From IMG/VR virus record IMGVR_UViG_3300017757_000001: a DNA stretch of 64,000 nt; one strand, written 5' to 3'. Origin of the DNA: a virus. Of this stretch, positions 15,560-32,469 are shown piece by piece (the first letter of the stretch is position 1; each line of letters starts with the position of its first letter). The notes under the pieces were generated by a model. The model ran no database searches. It was not told where the DNA came from and worked only from the letters and a program-made list of their open reading frames with translations. The translations under genes were made by a program, and so were the position numbers.

Positions 15560-16765
15560 TTATCTTAAAATAGTAAGATGTCCTGATTTTTGGTAAATTT
15601 CTGGGGAGTTAAATTTTCTAGCATAAAAACTGTAAACATAAACTCCATCTACTACATAGGAGGGACCTCCTTGCATACTACCATCCCAATAAGGATATGA
15701 GCCATAATCATCACCATAACCCTCAAAAACTAAACCACCCCATCTATTATAGATCTTAAACTCTACATCAACCCAGCAATTTAAATCAAGGATAATTTGC
15801 CAAATATCATTAAACCCATCATTATTTGGTGTTAATACATTAGGTATAAAAATACTCCAAGGCCAACATTCATCTATTATTAATTCATTACAAGGTAAAT
15901 TAGTATCACAATCTACTTCAATAATTTGAGTAATAGTATCTGTTAAAAAAACATATTCTAAAACTTCAATCTCTAAAGTATCTGCGATATATTCAACGAC
16001 AGTGTCTATTTCATATATATTGACATACTCTATGAGTGTATCGGTTATATACACGTATTCTTGCATTATAATGGTATCTATTTGCGTTTGAATAATAGTA
16101 TCTGGTGGAAGTTCTATATATAAAGTATCTGTAATATATTCTACAATTGTATCAGGTTCACATTCATTATAACAAACTGCTATTCTATTATCATCTATAT
16201 TAATATCAGGGTATGTCTGTGTCTGATTAAAACTATTACCAACAGTCCATCCGTTATCTGGAAAATCATCATAACCTGCAGTTTGAGAAAGATTAATCTG
16301 CCATATTACTACTTCCCAACAATACCCTTCAATAGGAGTAGCTAAAATACACTCCCAACTAAATGGTGGATTTATTTCAATAGTTGCAGTTGTACCAGTT
16401 TCCCAACCACCCCAATTTGTAGAAACTGCAAAACTCCAACCAGGATGGAAGGTTGCTGAAGTACAATCTGTATTTTCTCCTAAATCTTGTCCAGTTATTT
16501 CATCTACATAATGAATGCCAAAAACAAGGCTGGTTATATTTTCATTATTATTTACAGAACTAGATCCATTATCATCACAACTATTACCATCCCACTGTGT
16601 GTACTCATTACAGCCGCAGCTTTCAGCATTAATAAATTCAACTACAAATGAGTGAGTATCATCTGTTGTAGCAGGTGGTGTTTGACTTACAAGTTCTAAG
16701 TTACACGTTTGGGAATATGTAGTGTAAGACATAGTGGTTATTAAAACCAAAAATAATTTTTTCAT
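15560..16765 (-). CDS. Secreted protein with T9SS type B sorting (gliding-motility-associated, CHU_C) C-terminal domain
   Basis: Sec signal MKKLFLVLITTMSYTTYSQ; Cys-rich domain; DT-rich linker; CTD IFIPNVLTPNNDGFNDIW...FKIYNRWGGLVF...WDG...DGVYVY...GHLTILR. Confidence 0.85.
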   Translation of the reverse strand: MKKLFLVLITTMSYTTYSQTCNLELVSQTPPATTDDTHSFVVEFINAESCGCNEYTQWDGNSCDDNGSSSVNNNENITSLVFGIHYVDEITGQDLGENTDCTSATFHPGWSFAVSTNWGGWETGTTATIEINPPFSWECILATPIEGYCWEVVIWQINLSQTAGYDDFPDNGWTVGNSFNQTQTYPDINIDDNRIAVCYNECEPDTIVEYITDTLYIELPPDTIIQTQIDTIIMQEYVYITDTLIEYVNIYEIDTVVEYIADTLEIEVLEYVFLTDTITQIIEVDCDTNLPCNELIIDECWPWSIFIPNVLTPNNDGFNDIWQIILDLNCWVDVEFKIYNRWGGLVFEGYGDDYGSYPYWDGSMQGGPSYVVDGVYVYSFYARKFNSPEIYQKSGHLTILR

Positions 16766-16817
16766 TAAGGGGAAGTAAGGGGGGAGGGAATAACGTTTTA
16801 TCCCTTATACATATGGG

Positions 16818-16894
16818 TAGGCAAGAAGAGACTTGAACTCTCATGTAACCAATTACTCTTTCTACAAGGTATAAGCTTGAGGAGATACATGCCT
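16818..16894 (-). tRNA. Atypical D-armless tRNA-like RNA, anticodon UAU (Ile)
   Basis: Acceptor AGGCATG/CTTGCCT-A; T arm GAGAG-TTCAAGT-CTCTT; anticodon arm CAAG-CTTATAC-CTTG; only 8 nt in place of the D arm; long variable region with a GTAAT/GTTAC hairpin; 6 nt downstream of tRNA-Arg. Confidence 0.6.
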
Positions 16895-16900
16895 ATGTAG

Positions 16901-16974
16901 TGAACCAGACAGGATTCGAACCTGTGACCGTTAGCTTAGAAGGCTAATGCTCTATCCAACTGAGCTACTGGTCC
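16901..16974 (-). tRNA. tRNA-Arg (UCU)
   Basis: GGACCAGTAGCTCAGTTGGATAGAGCA-TTAGC-CTTCTAA-GCTAA...GGTTCGAATCC..CTGGTTCA; canonical cloverleaf, no encoded CCA. Confidence 0.95.
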
Positions 16975-16994
16975 ATGTATTTATTTATGAAGGG

Positions 16995-17080
16995 TACTCG
17001 GGGTGGGACTCGAACCCACACTCGCTATTCAGCAAATCAGATTTTAAGTCTGACGTGTCTACCAATTCCACCACCCGAGC
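16995..17080 (-). tRNA. tRNA-Leu (UAA)
   Basis: GCTCGGGTGGTGGAATTGGTAGACACG-TCAGA-CTTAAAA-TCTGA, long variable arm, GGTTCGAGTCC; no encoded CCA. Confidence 0.95.
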
Positions 17081-17090
17081 ATTCGAGGAT

Positions 17091-18965: not shown

Positions 18966-19140
18966 AACGCCTATTTTTAAAGTGAAGTTCTTGTCTTAAA
19001 TATTCTAATTCACGCTTTGCTTCGCCTACTTGACCACTATCAAGATATTCTTGAATTACGGTTATTTTATTATAAATTTCATCAACTTTAACGTAATTTT
19101 CACTTATAATTTCTTTTAATCTTTGTTTAAATTTACTCAT
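18964..19140 (-). CDS. Small hypothetical protein (58 aa, MSKFKQRLKEIISE...)
   Basis: Manual translation; overlaps the bS21 stop; below the ORF-track size cutoff. Confidence 0.55.
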   Translation of the reverse strand: MSKFKQRLKEIISENYVKVDEIYNKITVIQEYLDSGQVGEAKRELEYLRQELHFKNRR

Positions 19141-19321
19141 CGTTTTTTAATTTTTGAATGTATTTAGCTTTATCAATAACATTTCTTCTTTTTGAAGAAG
19201 GCTTTTCGTAAAATTTATTAGATCTAAGTTCTTTCAACAATCCAATTTTTTTTATCTTTTTTTTATAGCGTTTTAAAGCCCTATCAATTTTTTCATTTTT
19301 TCCAAGTTTTATTATAATCAT
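19133..19321 (-). CDS. rpsU: Ribosomal protein bS21
   Basis: MIIIKLGKNEKIDRALKRYKKK...ELR...FYEKPS..RR...KAKYIQ; start moved to the second Met (19321). Confidence 0.9.
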   Translation of the reverse strand: MIIIKLGKNEKIDRALKRYKKKIKKIGLLKELRSNKFYEKPSSKRRNVIDKAKYIQKLKNDE

Positions 19322-19385
19322 AAGCGTCTCTCTAAAAGGTTTTCTCTTCCACATATTAGTATACAGAAATACATATATACTACCA

Positions 19386-19733: not shown

Positions 19734-20171
19734 TTATACATATGACGTTTTGTGGGTTCCATTTATAATATTTGAAGAACTCAATCCACCATATCTTGGA
19801 ACATATATGATATTTTCAATATACTCCGATCCAATTATTTCTTTTTCTTTATAATCATCCCCAATTACCATAAATTTTGGAAGTTGAACTTCAATTAAGT
19901 TCCTCAACATATCATCACTATGAAAAGCGTAAACTTCATCAATGTATTTTATAGCACGTAGAAATTCCATTCTATCCTTTAGCTTATTTACTGGCCTACC
20001 TACTCCTTTTGCTTCTCTTATTCTCTCATCCGTATCTACTCCAACTACTATCTTCCATGAAAAGGGAGGTAACTCATCATTTGCTAATTCATGTGCTCTT
20101 TCGAATAATTTGATGTGCCCCATGTGGAGCACATCAAAAGTTCCATTTAACCAAATTACATTATTGTGCAT
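19734..20171 (-). CDS. Cytidylyltransferase-like nucleotidyltransferase (HldE/RfaE domain II-like)
   Basis: NGTFDVLHMGH (HxGH), GVDTDERIREAKGVGRPVN, GDDY, SSSNII. Confidence 0.85.
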   Translation of the reverse strand: MHNNVIWLNGTFDVLHMGHIKLFERAHELANDELPPFSWKIVVGVDTDERIREAKGVGRPVNKLKDRMEFLRAIKYIDEVYAFHSDDMLRNLIEVQLPKFMVIGDDYKEKEIIGSEYIENIIYVPRYGGLSSSNIINGTHKTSYV

Positions 20172-20976
20172 ACTCTAAAGCTACATTAAATAGCTCTTTA
20201 TTAATTTTCATATCTTGTTTGAAATTTTTAATCTCACGAGCTTTTCTTGCTTTACCCGCTGAACGGTAATCGAAGTCTCCTGTAATTAATTTTTCTTGAA
20301 CTACATTAAATACACTCCAAAGATCGCTTCCTGCGTCTTCTTTTCTAACTGGATTGATAAATGCATCCAAATCAATTTGAATTCTATTCATCTCTGGCTT
20401 TGTAAACCTTGTTAGCAATGCATCTTTGGCAAATTGAAGAATTCTTTCTTGCTCCATTTCTGTAGCTTTCATTCGATTCATAGATTCAACTGTCAATGGT
20501 AGCTTTTCAACCATATCCTTAATCATATCTTGAAGATCTTCAAATGAATAACCCATATGACGCATTTTAACATCTTCAAATTGCTGATCTGCAATTACAA
20601 GACCATTTGAGCAAATCAACCTATACAAACCTGCTTGGAATGTAAAAGCATTTTTACCATCATGAGAGTTAGTCATTAGGATTTGTGGAAATACTGTATC
20701 ACCATCTTCTCCATTAATAACAACATCATCATTTCTAAACACCAATAAGTGCTTCTGAAAGCCCTTAGTTGAAATTTTACGAGCTTTTACCTCTTTCGCC
20801 TCAATTGGCTTCCAACCTAATACTTCCATATCATCAATTACTCTTTCTGTAGGAATGTGAGTGTAATGTTTAGAAACCTCATTACTAGGCTTTTCTGCGA
20901 ATACTGACGGCGCTACGCTTAAAATATTCCCTTTTGTTAAATACTTTGCTGATTGCAAATCTTCTGAATTCATCAT
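20161..20976 (-). CDS. DUF932/DUF945 family protein
   Basis: APSVFAE..S..YTHIPT, KHLLVFR, NSHDG, GLYRLICSNGLV, DLWSVFNVVQE. Confidence 0.85.
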   Translation of the reverse strand: MMNSEDLQSAKYLTKGNILSVAPSVFAEKPSNEVSKHYTHIPTERVIDDMEVLGWKPIEAKEVKARKISTKGFQKHLLVFRNDDVVINGEDGDTVFPQILMTNSHDGKNAFTFQAGLYRLICSNGLVIADQQFEDVKMRHMGYSFEDLQDMIKDMVEKLPLTVESMNRMKATEMEQERILQFAKDALLTRFTKPEMNRIQIDLDAFINPVRKEDAGSDLWSVFNVVQEKLITGDFDYRSAGKARKAREIKNFKQDMKINKELFNVALEYAQ

Positions 20977-28808: not shown

Positions 28809-28861
28809 AACTGTTTTTGTTTATAATATACAACCTATATTTTACTTATCCTAATTATATT

Positions 28862-29100
28862 ATTACCTCCAACCACCGAGGTTTTGACGACATGACCTCT
28901 TTTTACCGTTTGCTAGAGTGCCTTATTAGGCAGCCATCGCTAATTCAACTTGTTCGCCAGTTGTTACGTTGACCTTCCTTTTACCCTTATCACCCTGTCA
29001 AATCCGATCACCCCCATGCTTTAAATATTTTTTAGTGGAGGTGGAGGGAATCGAACCCTCGTCCAAAAGTGTAGCTAATAAAAGTACTAGCGGTCATTTA
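28862..29100 (-). ncRNA. ssrA: Circularly permuted (two-piece) tmRNA
   Basis: Acceptor piece ...GGACGAGGGTTCGATTCCCTCCACCTCCA (ends 29036) lies upstream of the 5' piece GGGGGTGATCGGATTTGAC (starts 29015); G3.U70 pair; tag GEQVELAMAA** at 28958-28923; outer ends approximate. Confidence 0.9.
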
Positions 29101-29106
29101 TAATTA

Positions 29107-29514
29107 TTAATATTTTTCTGCTTCTAATACCTCTTCATCAGATGGCTCATAATCATCCATATCACCAAATTCATTTCTATAGAACTCATCTTCTTCAGCT
29201 TGTTTAGCAGCTATTTCTTCATCTTTAGCTAAATCATCTTTCCAAGCAATTGGAGCTAGTAATCCACCATTTTCAATTACAGACCATATTCTTTCTTTCC
29301 ATAAATTCATATGAACACCTTCTACAGTACATTCAAAACCTAATTTTTCAGTAAGTTTAGCTACTTTATCTAAAAATGCTGCTGTTAGCATATCAAATTC
29401 ACCTTTTATAGGGAAGTTTTTACCATACTCATCTGTTCCATTTGTATTATTTTCATACATTTCTTTAATATCTAACCAATCTGAGGTTAATATTGATTTT
29501 TTTGCTTTCGCCAT
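29107..29514 (-). CDS. Hypothetical protein with acidic C-terminus
   Basis: ORF track. Confidence 0.55.
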   Translation of the reverse strand: MAKAKKSILTSDWLDIKEMYENNTNGTDEYGKNFPIKGEFDMLTAAFLDKVAKLTEKLGFECTVEGVHMNLWKERIWSVIENGGLLAPIAWKDDLAKDEEIAAKQAEEDEFYRNEFGDMDDYEPSDEEVLEAEKY

Positions 29515-31282: not shown

Positions 31283-31750
31283 TTAAAAGCCCCCATGATC
31301 TGCATCACTAAATTTAATTAATTTATTAAAACAATTCATATTCAACATTTTATTTCGTTTCTTATCACCCATTTGATCCATTAATTTAATACGCATATGA
31401 TTGCGTACTATATCATGAATAACATACACATCACCACCTAGATCGTTAATTAAGTCTTCATTATCCAATACAATTTGAGCTGATACTTTTTCATGGCCAT
31501 AATGTGTAATATGTCCCTTTATAGGATGAGTTCCAGCAGTAACATCTTTACCAATATCATGAAATATAGCTGCTAGTAATAAATCAATATCATCAAATTT
31601 CTCTAACCTACTAAATACTACACTAGTATGAGTTAAAACATCACCCTCAGGATGAAAATCTCTCCTTTGGTCAAAATTACTAAGGTTTAAAATTCTTAAT
31701 CTTAAATCCTTAGGAAACTTACTAATTATTTTTAAAAATCTTTTATTCAT
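31283..31750 (-). CDS. HD-domain phosphatase, homologous to the C-terminal domain of multifunctional CCA enzymes
   Basis: Q..DFHPEGDVLTHT, AAIFHDIGK, HYGHE, HM, AD; start MNKRF overlaps the upstream stop (TAATG). Confidence 0.8.
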   Translation of the reverse strand: MNKRFLKIISKFPKDLRLRILNLSNFDQRRDFHPEGDVLTHTSVVFSRLEKFDDIDLLLAAIFHDIGKDVTAGTHPIKGHITHYGHEKVSAQIVLDNEDLINDLGGDVYVIHDIVRNHMRIKLMDQMGDKKRNKMLNMNCFNKLIKFSDADHGGF

Positions 31751-32469
31751 TAGTGTTTTGTTGTGGGCATTAACCACATTCCATCTTTAAATATTACTTC
31801 CATCAAACCAGGAACTGTATCTATTGTTCTTAATGATCTTATAGTATCATGTTTCATCATTTTACTAACTTCTTCTCTTATTCTTTCTTGTGAAACTACT
31901 TCTTCTAATTTATCTAATAAATCAAGTTGCTTCATTGCATCACTTAATTCTTTACATATTTTAAAATCTTTAGTAACACTAAATCTTAAGGCTCTTAGTA
32001 ATCTTAAAGGATCATCCATTAAAGTAACCATTGGATCTAATGGAGTTCTTAATATTTTATCTTCTAAATCTTTTAATCCCCCAAATAGATCAACTAATTG
32101 ACCATCTTCAGTTTTACATAAAGCATTTACAGTAAAATCTCTTCTTACCATATCATCTTCAAATGAACCTAACTCTAATATTGGCTTTCTAGTTCCAGGG
32201 ATAACACCTATTTCCTTTCTAGCCATTACAAAATCAGCAACTAAACCTTCATGTTGGTGTCCTTTAGGAAACATAGCTCTAACAGTAAAACAATCTTTAG
32301 TTTTAAGAAATATTTTAAAACCTTCTTGTTTAAGAAAATCTAACATCTTCTCCCAACCTTCATCTACTGATAAAGTAAAATCATCTAGTTCAACAGTAAA
32401 ATCTATATCTTTTGTGTGGAGTCCTAACAACTCATCCCTAACACACCCACCTACTTCAAATAGTTTCAT
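31750..32469 (-). CDS. cca: tRNA nucleotidyltransferase (CCA-adding enzyme, class II head/neck)
   Basis: VGGCVRDELLG..KDIDF, RRDFTVNA, DLFGGLKDL, DDPLRLLRALRF, ERIREE. Confidence 0.9.
   Translation of the reverse strand: MKLFEVGGCVRDELLGLHTKDIDFTVELDDFTLSVDEGWEKMLDFLKQEGFKIFLKTKDCFTVRAMFPKGHQHEGLVADFVMARKEIGVIPGTRKPILELGSFEDDMVRRDFTVNALCKTEDGQLVDLFGGLKDLEDKILRTPLDPMVTLMDDPLRLLRALRFSVTKDFKICKELSDAMKQLDLLDKLEEVVSQERIREEVSKMMKHDTIRSLRTIDTVPGLMEVIFKDGMWLMPTTKH

What the first reader, a model, noticed from the sequence alone, without database searches (positions are those of the whole stretch)
16818..16894. D-armless tRNA-like RNA with a UAU anticodon at the end of the tRNA cluster
Seen: good acceptor stem (one U.U mismatch), perfect T arm with TTCAAGT loop, and a 7-nt loop CT-TAT-AC. 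Only TATCTCCT replaces the D arm, and a 22-nt variable region carries its own hairpin. CTCCT can extend the anticodon helix by pairing with AG..GAG. Known: D-armless tRNAs are typical of animal mitochondria, and bacteria normally read AUA with lysidine-modified CAU, not UAU. Inference: either a non-canonical AUA decoder (ATA is frequent in this AT-rich genome) or a tRNA mimic/decoy for anticodon nucleases or tRNA-sensing defences.
Basis: partly seen in the sequence, partly recalled or inferred. Interest (0 to 1): 0.78.

Follow-up and report, generated by a model that had tools for sequence, protein, structure and literature searches.

The report
Phage isoleucine tRNA with rewired core
The flagged 77 bases are very likely a working phage isoleucine tRNA for the AUA codon that has every standard tRNA part, but with half of its D-arm placed after the anticodon arm; hundreds of phages share this layout, tRNA finders miss it, and I found it in no paper.

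Summary
The element is real. It lies on the minus strand at 16894..16818, 6 nt after tRNA-Arg(UCU). ARAGORN and Rfam tRNA do not call it, and it is not D-armless. Nucleotides 9-20 (A9, the D-stem 5' strand and the D-loop with G18G19) lie after the anticodon arm instead of before it. The D-stem therefore closes around the anticodon arm.

Main evidence:
- It is 98-99% identical in relatives whose neighbouring protein is only 70-88% identical.
- All four helices covary, and so does the R15:Y48 tertiary pair. RNAalifold finds the same fold on its own.
- Moving the segment back in silico gives a canonical tRNA-Ile(UAU) in 70 of 70 variants.
- 213 distinct relatives in IMG/VR carry only Ile (UAU, GAU, CAU) or Arg anticodons.
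- Position 20 is A in 48/48 Arg types and U in 132/132 Ile types. All Ile types have discriminator A73.
- Relatives sit a median of 42.5 nt from ordinary tRNAs, always on the same strand.
- A sister phage has a canonical tRNA-Ile(UAU) in the equivalent cluster.
- ATA makes up 42% of this phage's Ile codons.

Expression and charging are untested. This scan has found the same family before on other DNA; I reached the reading independently. No paper found describes it.

The parts
16888..16894 (-). Acceptor stem, 5' strand (nt 1-7, AGGCAUG)
   Evidence: Pairs with 16819-16825. All 7 pairs covary in the family. The U.U at pair 6:67 becomes A-U in L012 and L013.
16886..16887 (-). U8 and A21 equivalents (junction UA)
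   Evidence: Invariant in 133/133 aligned family members. U8 can pair with A14 (16854), which is invariant U:A.
16882..16885 (-). D-stem 3' strand (U22 C23 U24 C25)
   Evidence: C23:G12, U24:A11 and C25:G10 pair with 16856-16858. Pair 24:11 is U-A in 41 and C-G in 29 variants. All three pairs show compensatory changes in variants with stems TACC/GGTT, TCGG/CCGT, TAGC/GCTT, TCGA/TCGT and TCCT/AGGT. U13.U22 occurs in 188/188.
16881..16881 (-). C26 equivalent
   Evidence: Invariant C in 188/188 family members.
16864..16880 (-). Anticodon arm (27-43). The loop is C32 U33 U34 A35 U36 A37 C38 and the anticodon UAU is at 16873-16871.
   Evidence: The stem is paired in 752/752 cells of a set retrieved without any pairing filter. 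4 stem pairs covary. The loop is identical to that of the canonical tRNA-Ile(UAU) of sister phage L007.
16860..16863 (-). 4-nt linker AGAA joining nt 43 to A9; this join is new in this layout
   Evidence: N-G-A-A is conserved: G33 and A35 are invariant and A34 is at least 90%. It has no counterpart in a cloverleaf.
16855..16859 (-). A9 plus the D-stem 5' strand (G10 A11 G12 U13), displaced to after the anticodon arm
   Evidence: Covaries with 16882-16884. RNAalifold predicts this helix independently.
16848..16854 (-). D-loop (A14 A15 U16 U17 G18 G19 U20)
   Evidence: A14, G18 and G19 are invariant. R15 covaries with Y48. Position 20 is U in 132/132 Ile-type and A in 48/48 Arg-type members.
16843..16847 (-). 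Variable-loop equivalent (UACAU, ending in Y48)
   Evidence: Y48 (16843) covaries with R15 (16853): A:U 61 and G:C 9 of 70.
16826..16842 (-). T arm (49-65), loop UUCAAGU
   Evidence: 4-5 of 5 pairs covary. T54, U55, C56 and A58 are invariant.
16819..16825 (-). Acceptor stem, 3' strand (66-72)
   Evidence: Covaries with 16888-16894.
16816..16818 (-). Discriminator A73 followed by CC (the final A of CCA is not encoded)
   Evidence: A73 occurs in 132/132 Ile-type members and C74 in 186/188. Conservation among close relatives stops after ACC.
16900..16974 (-). Neighbouring canonical tRNA-Arg(UCU)
   Evidence: ARAGORN; Rfam RF00005 73.8 bits.
16992..17081 (-). Neighbouring canonical tRNA-Leu(UAA)
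   Evidence: ARAGORN; Rfam RF00005 61.3 bits.

Best explanation
This is a functional elongator tRNA-Ile(UAU) gene of a large AT-rich marine phage whose host is probably a Bacteroidota bacterium. It is transcribed with the adjacent tRNA-Leu(UAA) and tRNA-Arg(UCU), cut out by the ordinary tRNA end-processing enzymes, completed to CCA, charged by host IleRS, and used to read the phage's abundant AUA codons.

Its core is permuted. The order is 1-8, then 21-43, then a 4-nt linker, then 9-20, then 44-76. The D-stem (10-12 with 23-25) therefore forms around the anticodon arm as one long hairpin. The D-loop is a single strand that leads directly into the variable loop and the T arm. Every nucleotide that builds the L-shape is kept (U8:A14, R15:Y48, G18G19 with U55 C56, A21), so the RNA should fold into a normal tRNA shape with different strand connectivity.

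Shown here: the conservation, the covariation, the family and its context. Inferred: the 3D fold, processing, aminoacylation and decoding.
For: (1) Purifying selection. The element is 98-99% identical in loci whose adjacent 401-aa protein is 70-88% identical, 93% where the protein is 64%, and 89% where it is 60%.

(2) Structure. On 70 distinct UAU-type variants with no indels, 7/7 acceptor pairs, 4/5 T-stem pairs, the D-stem pair 24:11 and R15:Y48 all covary. On 133 family members, 20 of 23 pairs covary, with a covariation score of 0.77 against 0.20 for shuffles and 0.15 or less for slid partners. RNAalifold independently predicts the acceptor, the D helix around the anticodon stem, the T arm and a 13-nt single strand.

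(3) All parts are present. Moving cols 36-47 back to after U8 makes ARAGORN call tRNA-Ile(tat) in 70/70 variants, against 0/70 for the native order.

(4) Family. 213 distinct members in IMG/VR carry only the anticodons TAT 87, GAT 56, CAT 8, TCT 36, CCT 16, ACG 5 and TCG 5. In a set retrieved without any pairing filter, the acceptor is 96.5% paired, the T stem 98% and the anticodon stem 100%.

(5) Synthetase identity positions track the anticodon. Position 20 is A in 48/48 Arg types (A20 is the known ArgRS determinant) and U in 132/132 Ile types. A73 occurs in 132/132 Ile types. CCA is encoded in 26/48 Arg types and 14/132 Ile types.

(6) Context. The nearest canonical tRNA is a median of 42.5 nt away and on the same strand in 190/190 cases. 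In this window the element starts 6 nt after tRNA-Arg.

(7) Role. Complete relatives (164 kb, CheckV 100%) have only tRNA-Leu, tRNA-Arg and this element, with no canonical tRNA-Ile. Sister phages L007-L011 have Leu(UAA), Arg(UCU), Lys(UUU) and a canonical Ile(UAU) with the same CUUAUAC loop. ATA is 42% of Ile codons, AGA 76% of Arg and TTA 74% of Leu in the window.

(8) The phage encodes a nucleotidyltransferase of the CCA-adding/poly(A) polymerase family at 31750-32469.
Against: Thermodynamics alone do not single out the fold: the model structure is -11.6 kcal/mol against an MFE of -12.6, and the z-score is 0.22. It is untested whether RNase P, IleRS, EF-Tu and the ribosome accept the altered connectivity, in which no strand runs 8-9-10 or 44-48 along the D-stem groove. 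An unmodified U34 would risk reading AUG. My family retrieval used D-stem-specific patterns, so the restriction to Ile and Arg anticodons may partly reflect how I searched. A D-stem-agnostic descriptor run on the fetched loci gave the same result.
Confidence: 0.8

Rival explanations
1. It is a tRNA mimic or decoy: a stable tRNA-shaped RNA that is not charged and instead soaks up host anticodon nucleases or other tRNA-sensing defences.
For: The core connectivity is non-standard and could block synthetases. Standard tRNA models reject it. The UAU-type anticodon stem-loop is strikingly uniform among marine relatives. Phage tRNAs are known, from general knowledge, to counter tRNA-cleaving defences.
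Against: A decoy for anticodon nucleases has no obvious need to keep A73 in all Ile types, A20 in all Arg types, or encoded CCA in many members. The anticodons are exactly those of codon-supplementing phage tRNAs (AUA, AGA/AGG, AUY). In this phage the element fills the slot held by a canonical tRNA-Ile(UAU) in sister phages.
Confidence: 0.1
2. The gene is rearranged but the RNA is not: the transcript is cut and re-ligated into a canonical cloverleaf, as happens for the circularly permuted tRNA genes of Cyanidioschyzon.
For: All canonical segments are present, and re-ordering them in silico gives a perfect tRNA. The window's phage also carries a permuted tmRNA gene.
Against: Restoring the order would need two cuts and two ligations inside the molecule. 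The acceptor strands are already in normal order. No bulge-helix-bulge motif is evident by inspection of the sequence (no dedicated search was run), and bacteria are not known to have the splicing endonuclease (general knowledge). The 4-nt linker NGAA and the direct joins 8-21 and 20-44 are conserved as if they were part of the mature RNA.
Confidence: 0.03
3. It is a decaying tRNA pseudogene or a chance tRNA-like sequence.
For: It is not called by ARAGORN in any mode or by Rfam tRNA. The MFE z-score is 0.22.
Against: It is more conserved than the neighbouring protein genes. There are compensatory changes in every helix. There are 213 distinct relatives, and 188 of them share exactly this register. 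The family model scores it at 89.2 bits.
Confidence: 0.01

Closest known systems
Canonical phage and bacterial elongator tRNA-Ile(UAU) (Rfam RF00005), e.g. L007:7824-7901 in a sister phage, L172:1436-1510 in Kehishuvirus tikkala, and the tRNA-Ile of phage T4 (the last from general knowledge)
   Same: The anticodon loop is the same (CUUAUAC in L007). It shares the 7-bp acceptor stem, A73, the T arm, U8, A14, R15:Y48, G18G19, overall length and placement in phage tRNA clusters with Leu(UAA) and Arg(UCU). The presumed role, reading AUA in AT-rich phage genes, is also the same.
   Different: The D-arm is not a local hairpin. Nucleotides 9-20 lie after the anticodon arm, joined to nt 43 by a 4-nt linker, and U8 runs straight into A21. 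RF00005 scores it below the family cut-off (27.3 bits against 29 in relatives; no hit in the window).
D-armless mitochondrial tRNAs (e.g. mammalian mt-tRNA-Ser(AGY), nematode mt-tRNAs)
   Same: In a plain secondary-structure drawing there is no D hairpin between the acceptor and anticodon arms, and the anticodon helix looks extended.
   Different: Those tRNAs have truly lost the D-stem and the D-loop/T-loop contacts (general knowledge). This RNA keeps a covarying D-stem, A14, R15:Y48 and G18G19, so nothing is missing.
Circularly permuted tRNA genes of Cyanidioschyzon merolae and other algae (Soma 2014, PMC3978253)
   Same: The order of tRNA gene segments differs from the mature cloverleaf order.
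   Different: There the 3' half precedes the 5' half, and the RNA is circularised and recut to give a standard tRNA. Here the ends are normal and only the inner domain 9-43 is permuted. The conserved joins suggest the RNA works as transcribed.
Non-circular permutations in self-cleaving ribozymes (Eckert and Weinberg 2023, PMC10085705)
   Same: It is a natural RNA whose conserved elements occur in a re-ordered sequence that should keep the same 3D arrangement.
   Different: That paper reports ribozymes and states that no non-circular permutations were previously known in natural RNAs; it reports none in tRNA.
allo-tRNAs with 8/4 or 9/3 acceptor/T branches (Mukai et al. 2017, PMC5389517)
   Same: They are non-standard tRNA architectures found by mining metagenomes and phages, and they are missed by standard tools.
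   Different: In allo-tRNAs only helix lengths change, while strand order stays cloverleaf. Here helix lengths are canonical and strand order changes.

Membership tests
Canonical tRNA (Rfam RF00005 cloverleaf) | 7-bp acceptor stem plus discriminator | tested here: met
   All 7 pairs covary, and A73 is present.
Canonical tRNA (Rfam RF00005 cloverleaf) | 5-bp T stem with a T54-U55-C56-R57-A58 loop | tested here: met
   The arm is GAGAG-UUCAAGU-CUCUU. 4-5 of 5 pairs covary, and T54, U55, C56 and A58 are invariant.
Canonical tRNA (Rfam RF00005 cloverleaf) | Anticodon arm with a 7-nt loop, U33 and purine 37 | tested here: met
   The loop is CUUAUAC on 4 Watson-Crick pairs plus U27.U43. The stem is paired in 752/752 family cells.
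Canonical tRNA (Rfam RF00005 cloverleaf) | D-arm as a local hairpin between nt 9 and 26 | tested here: not met
   The D-stem strands lie on either side of the anticodon arm. ARAGORN makes no call in bacterial, intron, mitochondrial or relaxed modes.
Canonical tRNA (Rfam RF00005 cloverleaf) | Score at or above the family gathering cut-off (29 bits) | tested here: not met
   There is no RF00005 match at E<=10 in the window and none at gathering. The relatives' copy scores 27.3 bits.
Canonical tRNA (Rfam RF00005 cloverleaf) | Core tertiary nucleotides U8, A14, R15:Y48, G18G19, A21 | tested here: met
   All are present and invariant, and 15:48 covaries (A:U 61, G:C 9). Whether the contacts actually form is inferred.
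Canonical tRNA (Rfam RF00005 cloverleaf) | Aminoacylation and decoding on the ribosome | not testable with these tools
   This needs tRNA-seq, acid-gel charging or in vitro IleRS assays.
Permuted-core phage tRNA family (Ile/Arg), as defined here by model R1 | Order 1-8, 21-43, NGAA linker, 9-20, 44-76, with the D helix enclosing the anticodon arm | tested here: met
   R1 scores the element at 89.2 bits, E 1.4e-21, against 26 bits or less for canonical tRNAs. The element is in the same register as 188 distinct relatives.
D-armless (mitochondrial-type) tRNA | Loss of the D-stem and of the D-loop nucleotides | tested here: not met
   The D-stem covaries and the D-loop motif A-R-Y-Y-G-G is present at 16854-16849.
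Circularly permuted tRNA gene (algal type) | The 3' half is encoded upstream of the 5' half, with the ends joined through a processed loop | tested here: not met
   The acceptor 5' and 3' strands are in normal order at the two ends of the element.
YrlA / Y-RNA-like tRNA mimic (RF02553) | Match to the family model | tested here: not met
   The only YrlA hit (27.2 bits against a cut-off of 69) spans the tRNA-Leu and tRNA-Arg genes at 16915-17044, not the element.

The most novel reading that the evidence does not exclude
This would be the first natural tRNA class with a non-circular permutation of its core, working in translation as transcribed. The rewiring would be adaptive: it would keep recognition by IleRS/ArgRS, EF-Tu and the ribosome while removing the features (a local D hairpin, and the 8-9 and 44-48 strands in the D-stem groove) that host tRNA-targeting nucleases or quality-control enzymes use. 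That would make these phage tRNAs resistant to tRNA-cleaving defences.
Probability: 0.25. Interest if true: 0.92.

Novelty: new variant of a known kind. Interest (0 to 1): 0.85.

Why it matters
The cloverleaf order of tRNA is among the most conserved designs in biology. A large natural family that builds the same parts in a different strand order has several consequences.
- It shows that the L-shape does not depend on cloverleaf connectivity.
- It offers a natural test of what RNase P, CCA-adding enzyme, class Ia synthetases, EF-Tu and the ribosome really require of the tRNA core.
- Phage tRNA repertoires for Ile and Arg are systematically under-counted. 211 of 213 members are missed by ARAGORN, and the copies in the GenBank phages Kehishuvirus tikkala and cr130_1 are unannotated.
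- It may provide ready-made unusual scaffolds for tRNA engineering.

For this phage it completes a coherent set: Leu(UAA), Arg(UCU) and Ile(UAU) match its three most skewed A-ending codons.

Tried and rejected
- ARAGORN in default, intron, mitochondrial and lowered-threshold modes made no call.
- Rfam at E<=10 and at gathering gave no family for the element.
- Single-sequence folding is uninformative: z 0.22, and the MFE differs from the model by 1 kcal/mol.
- A promoter/terminator scan of the region found nothing above chance.
- An exact 25-mer of the T arm plus acceptor gave no IMG/VR hit, because the window has a private U in the T stem.
- They do serve as an accidental negative control for the spacing.
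- A scan for members with A35 and a non-U36 (Val/Leu/Phe-type) found 2 stretches; neither is among the T-loop-filtered members tallied.
- The pattern was not found in 401 sampled Bacteroidota genomes, nor in the Aquimarina (L333) and uncultured Bacteroidales (L316) genomes searched separately. That means not found in those searched, not absent from cells.
- Seven completed literature searches found no description of this layout (one further attempt failed on a term-syntax error).
- PHROGs found nothing for the flanking small ORFs.

Full report
**Setting.** The window is 24-34% G+C in 2-kb steps (mostly 26-30%) and is packed with short minus-strand ORFs. No cellular genome is held for it. Its relatives are IMG/VR marine viral contigs of 160-178 kb. 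It encodes a type IX secretion CTD protein, ribosomal protein bS21, a CCA-adding/poly(A)-polymerase-family nucleotidyltransferase and a permuted tmRNA. It is therefore a large phage, probably of a marine Bacteroidota host.

**The observation.** Read on the minus strand, 16894..16818 begins 6 nt after the discriminator of tRNA-Arg(UCU), which itself follows tRNA-Leu(UAA). ARAGORN in any mode and Rfam tRNA do not call it. Its folding energy is no better than that of shuffled sequence. Taken alone, the sequence would be ambiguous.

**Relatives settle that it is real.** Loci were fetched through the two neighbouring proteins. The element is 98-99% identical in loci where the adjacent 401-aa protein is 70-88% identical, and 93% and 89% identical where the protein is 64% and 60%. 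Conservation stops just after A73-C-C. The few changes are compensatory:
- acceptor pair 3:70 changes from G-C to U-A;
- the U.U mismatch is repaired to A-U;
- the T stem changes from GAGAG/CUCUC to GUGGG/CCCAC.

**The fold.** A 17-mer of the anticodon arm retrieved more than 118 IMG/VR contigs, giving 70 distinct 79-nt variants with no indels. Pair counts on these show the following.
- All 7 acceptor pairs and 4 of 5 T-stem pairs covary.
- The middle pair of CUC:GAG, which brackets the anticodon arm, is U-A in 41 variants and C-G in 29, and is never broken.
- The purine in U-A-R-Y-Y-G-G covaries perfectly with the pyrimidine just before the T stem (A:U 61, G:C 9).

The last pair has the signature of the Levitt pair R15:Y48. 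It identifies the 'variable region' as A14 R15 Y16 Y17 G18 G19 U20 followed by a 5-nt variable loop.

The segment order is therefore 1-8, 21-26, the anticodon arm 27-43, a linker N-G-A-A, then A9 G10 R11 G12 U13 and the D-loop 14-20, then 44-48, the T arm and the acceptor 3' strand. This amounts to a circular permutation of the inner domain 9-43 inside an unpermuted acceptor/T frame. Nothing is missing. When nucleotides 9-20 are moved back in silico, ARAGORN calls a canonical tRNA-Ile(UAU) in 70 of 70 variants, against 0 of 70 in the native order. Control moves show that ARAGORN is tolerant of where exactly the segment is cut. The informative contrast is native order against restored order.

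**The wider family.** GenBank phages contain unannotated copies. Kehishuvirus tikkala, a crAss-like phage of Bacteroides cellulosilyticus, has one with anticodon GAU in a 90-nt 'gap' between tRNA-Trp and tRNA-Met. Phage cr130_1 has a UAU copy with a different, compensated anticodon stem.

Anticodon-agnostic 34-nt patterns retrieved 213 distinct members. Their anticodons are UAU 87, GAU 56, CAU 8, UCU 36, CCU 16, ACG 5 and UCG 5, that is, only Ile (or Ile2/Met for CAU) and Arg. In this set, chosen without any pairing filter, the acceptor is 96.5% paired, the T stem 98% and the anticodon stem 100%. A descriptor that ignores the D-stem sequence found further members with D stems TACC/GGTT, TCGG/CCGT, TAGC/GCTT, TCGA/TCGT and TCCT/AGGT. 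All three D pairs therefore show compensatory change.

On 133 aligned members, 20 of 23 pairs covary. That set was selected for pairing, so its percentage paired is circular; the compensatory changes and the unselected 15:48 pair are not. RNAalifold independently returns the same three-way junction. A covariance model of the family scores the window element at 89.2 bits and ordinary tRNAs at 26 bits or less.

**Evidence that these are working tRNAs and not mimics.**
- The nucleotide after G18G19 is A in 48/48 Arg-anticodon members; A20 is the classical ArgRS determinant (general knowledge). It is U in 132/132 Ile members.
- The discriminator is A in 132/132 Ile members.
- CCA is encoded in 26/48 Arg types and 14/132 Ile types.
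- Members sit in tRNA arrays. The nearest canonical tRNA is a median of 42.5 nt away and on the same strand in 190/190 cases, and ARAGORN overlaps only 2 of 213 members.
- The pattern was not found in 401 sampled Bacteroidota genomes.

**In this phage.** Complete relatives have only tRNA-Leu(UAA), tRNA-Arg(UCU) and this element, which RF00005 scores at 27.3 bits, below its cut-off. Sister phages L007-L011 carry Leu(UAA), Arg(UCU), Lys(UUU) and a canonical tRNA-Ile(UAU) with the identical CUUAUAC loop. The permuted gene thus fills the role that a normal tRNA-Ile(UAU) fills next door. In the window's ORFs, ATA is 42% of Ile codons, AGA 76% of Arg codons and TTA 74% of Leu codons. The three genes match the phage's three most skewed A-ending codons, as in the T4 tRNA set (general knowledge).

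**Mechanism.** These steps are inferred. The RNA is co-transcribed with the two upstream tRNAs. RNase P and 3' trimming should work because the acceptor/T minihelix is unchanged. The 3' end is completed to CCA by the host or phage nucleotidyltransferase. The D-stem stacks on the anticodon stem as usual, and the strand leaving U13 forms the D-loop, which docks on the T loop. The conserved purine linker (N-G-A-A, then A9) lies where nucleotides 9, 45 and 46 normally fill the D-stem groove and may replace those triples. Why the layout evolved is unknown. Common descent from one rearranged ancestor is plausible, followed by single-base anticodon switches (UAU to UCU, CAU to CCU), because the Ile and Arg types share nearly identical core sequences. 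Escape from tRNA-targeting defences is a speculative benefit.

**Rivals.**
- Decoy, about 0.1: it does not explain why identity positions track the anticodon.
- RNA-level re-ordering, about 0.03: it would need two cuts and two ligations, and the new joins are conserved.
- Pseudogene or chance, about 0.01: refuted.

**Novelty.** Seven completed full-text searches found no description of this layout. The 2023 paper on non-circular permutations states that none were known in natural RNAs before its ribozyme examples, and it reports none for tRNA. Notes from this scan show that other agents found the same family on other genomes and read it the same way. I consulted those notes only after reaching this reading, and they are not independent evidence.

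Noticed in passing
window 28835-29126 (-): A permuted (two-piece type) tmRNA gene in a phage. ARAGORN reports the tag peptide GEQVELAMAA, and Rfam RF04321 tmRNA_permuted scores 71.8 bits at 28926-29083. The same phage therefore carries both a permuted tmRNA and a permuted tRNA.
   Followed up: partly
window 31750-32469 (-): A 239-aa protein with the PolyA_pol head domain (PF01743, E 5e-19), the CCA-adding enzyme/poly(A) polymerase family. This is relevant because none of the three tRNA genes in the window encodes a full CCA.
   Followed up: partly
window 19133-19354 (-): A phage-encoded ribosomal protein bS21 (PF01165, E 5e-14).
   Followed up: no
window 15560-16765 (-): A 401-aa protein just downstream of the tRNA cluster ends in a CHU_C type IX secretion sorting domain (PF13585, E 2e-14). 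This points to a Bacteroidota host. Homologues occur in 34 IMG/VR loci.
   Followed up: partly
L172:1196-1272 (OQ198717.1 95577-95653, +) and L173:1182-1259 (NC_055901.1 about 68445-68522, -): Unannotated permuted tRNA-Ile genes in two GenBank crAss-like phages. Kehishuvirus tikkala has a GAU copy in a 'gap' between the annotated tRNA-Trp and tRNA-Met, and cr130_1 has a UAU copy. Model R1 scores them at 89.3 and 78.3 bits.
   Followed up: yes
L007-L011: 7425-7901 (+): Sister phages (401-aa protein 63% identical) carry a cluster of tRNA-Leu(UAA), Arg(UCU), Lys(UUU) and a canonical Ile(UAU), and have no permuted tRNA. The cluster lies downstream of the 401-aa gene, not upstream as in the window.
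   Followed up: partly
L211, L212, L221, L247, L280 (IMG/VR jumbo-phage contigs): Some phages carry two permuted tRNA-Ile(GAU) genes in tandem, 88 nt apart start to start.
   Followed up: no
window 20161-20976 (-): A DUF932-family protein (PF06067, E 6e-33).
   Followed up: no
Family-wide, position 74 (column 78 of the 79-column alignment A1): C74 is encoded in 186 of 188 members even though full CCA is encoded in only a minority. U13.U22 is a universal mismatch (188/188). Neither is explained.
   Followed up: no
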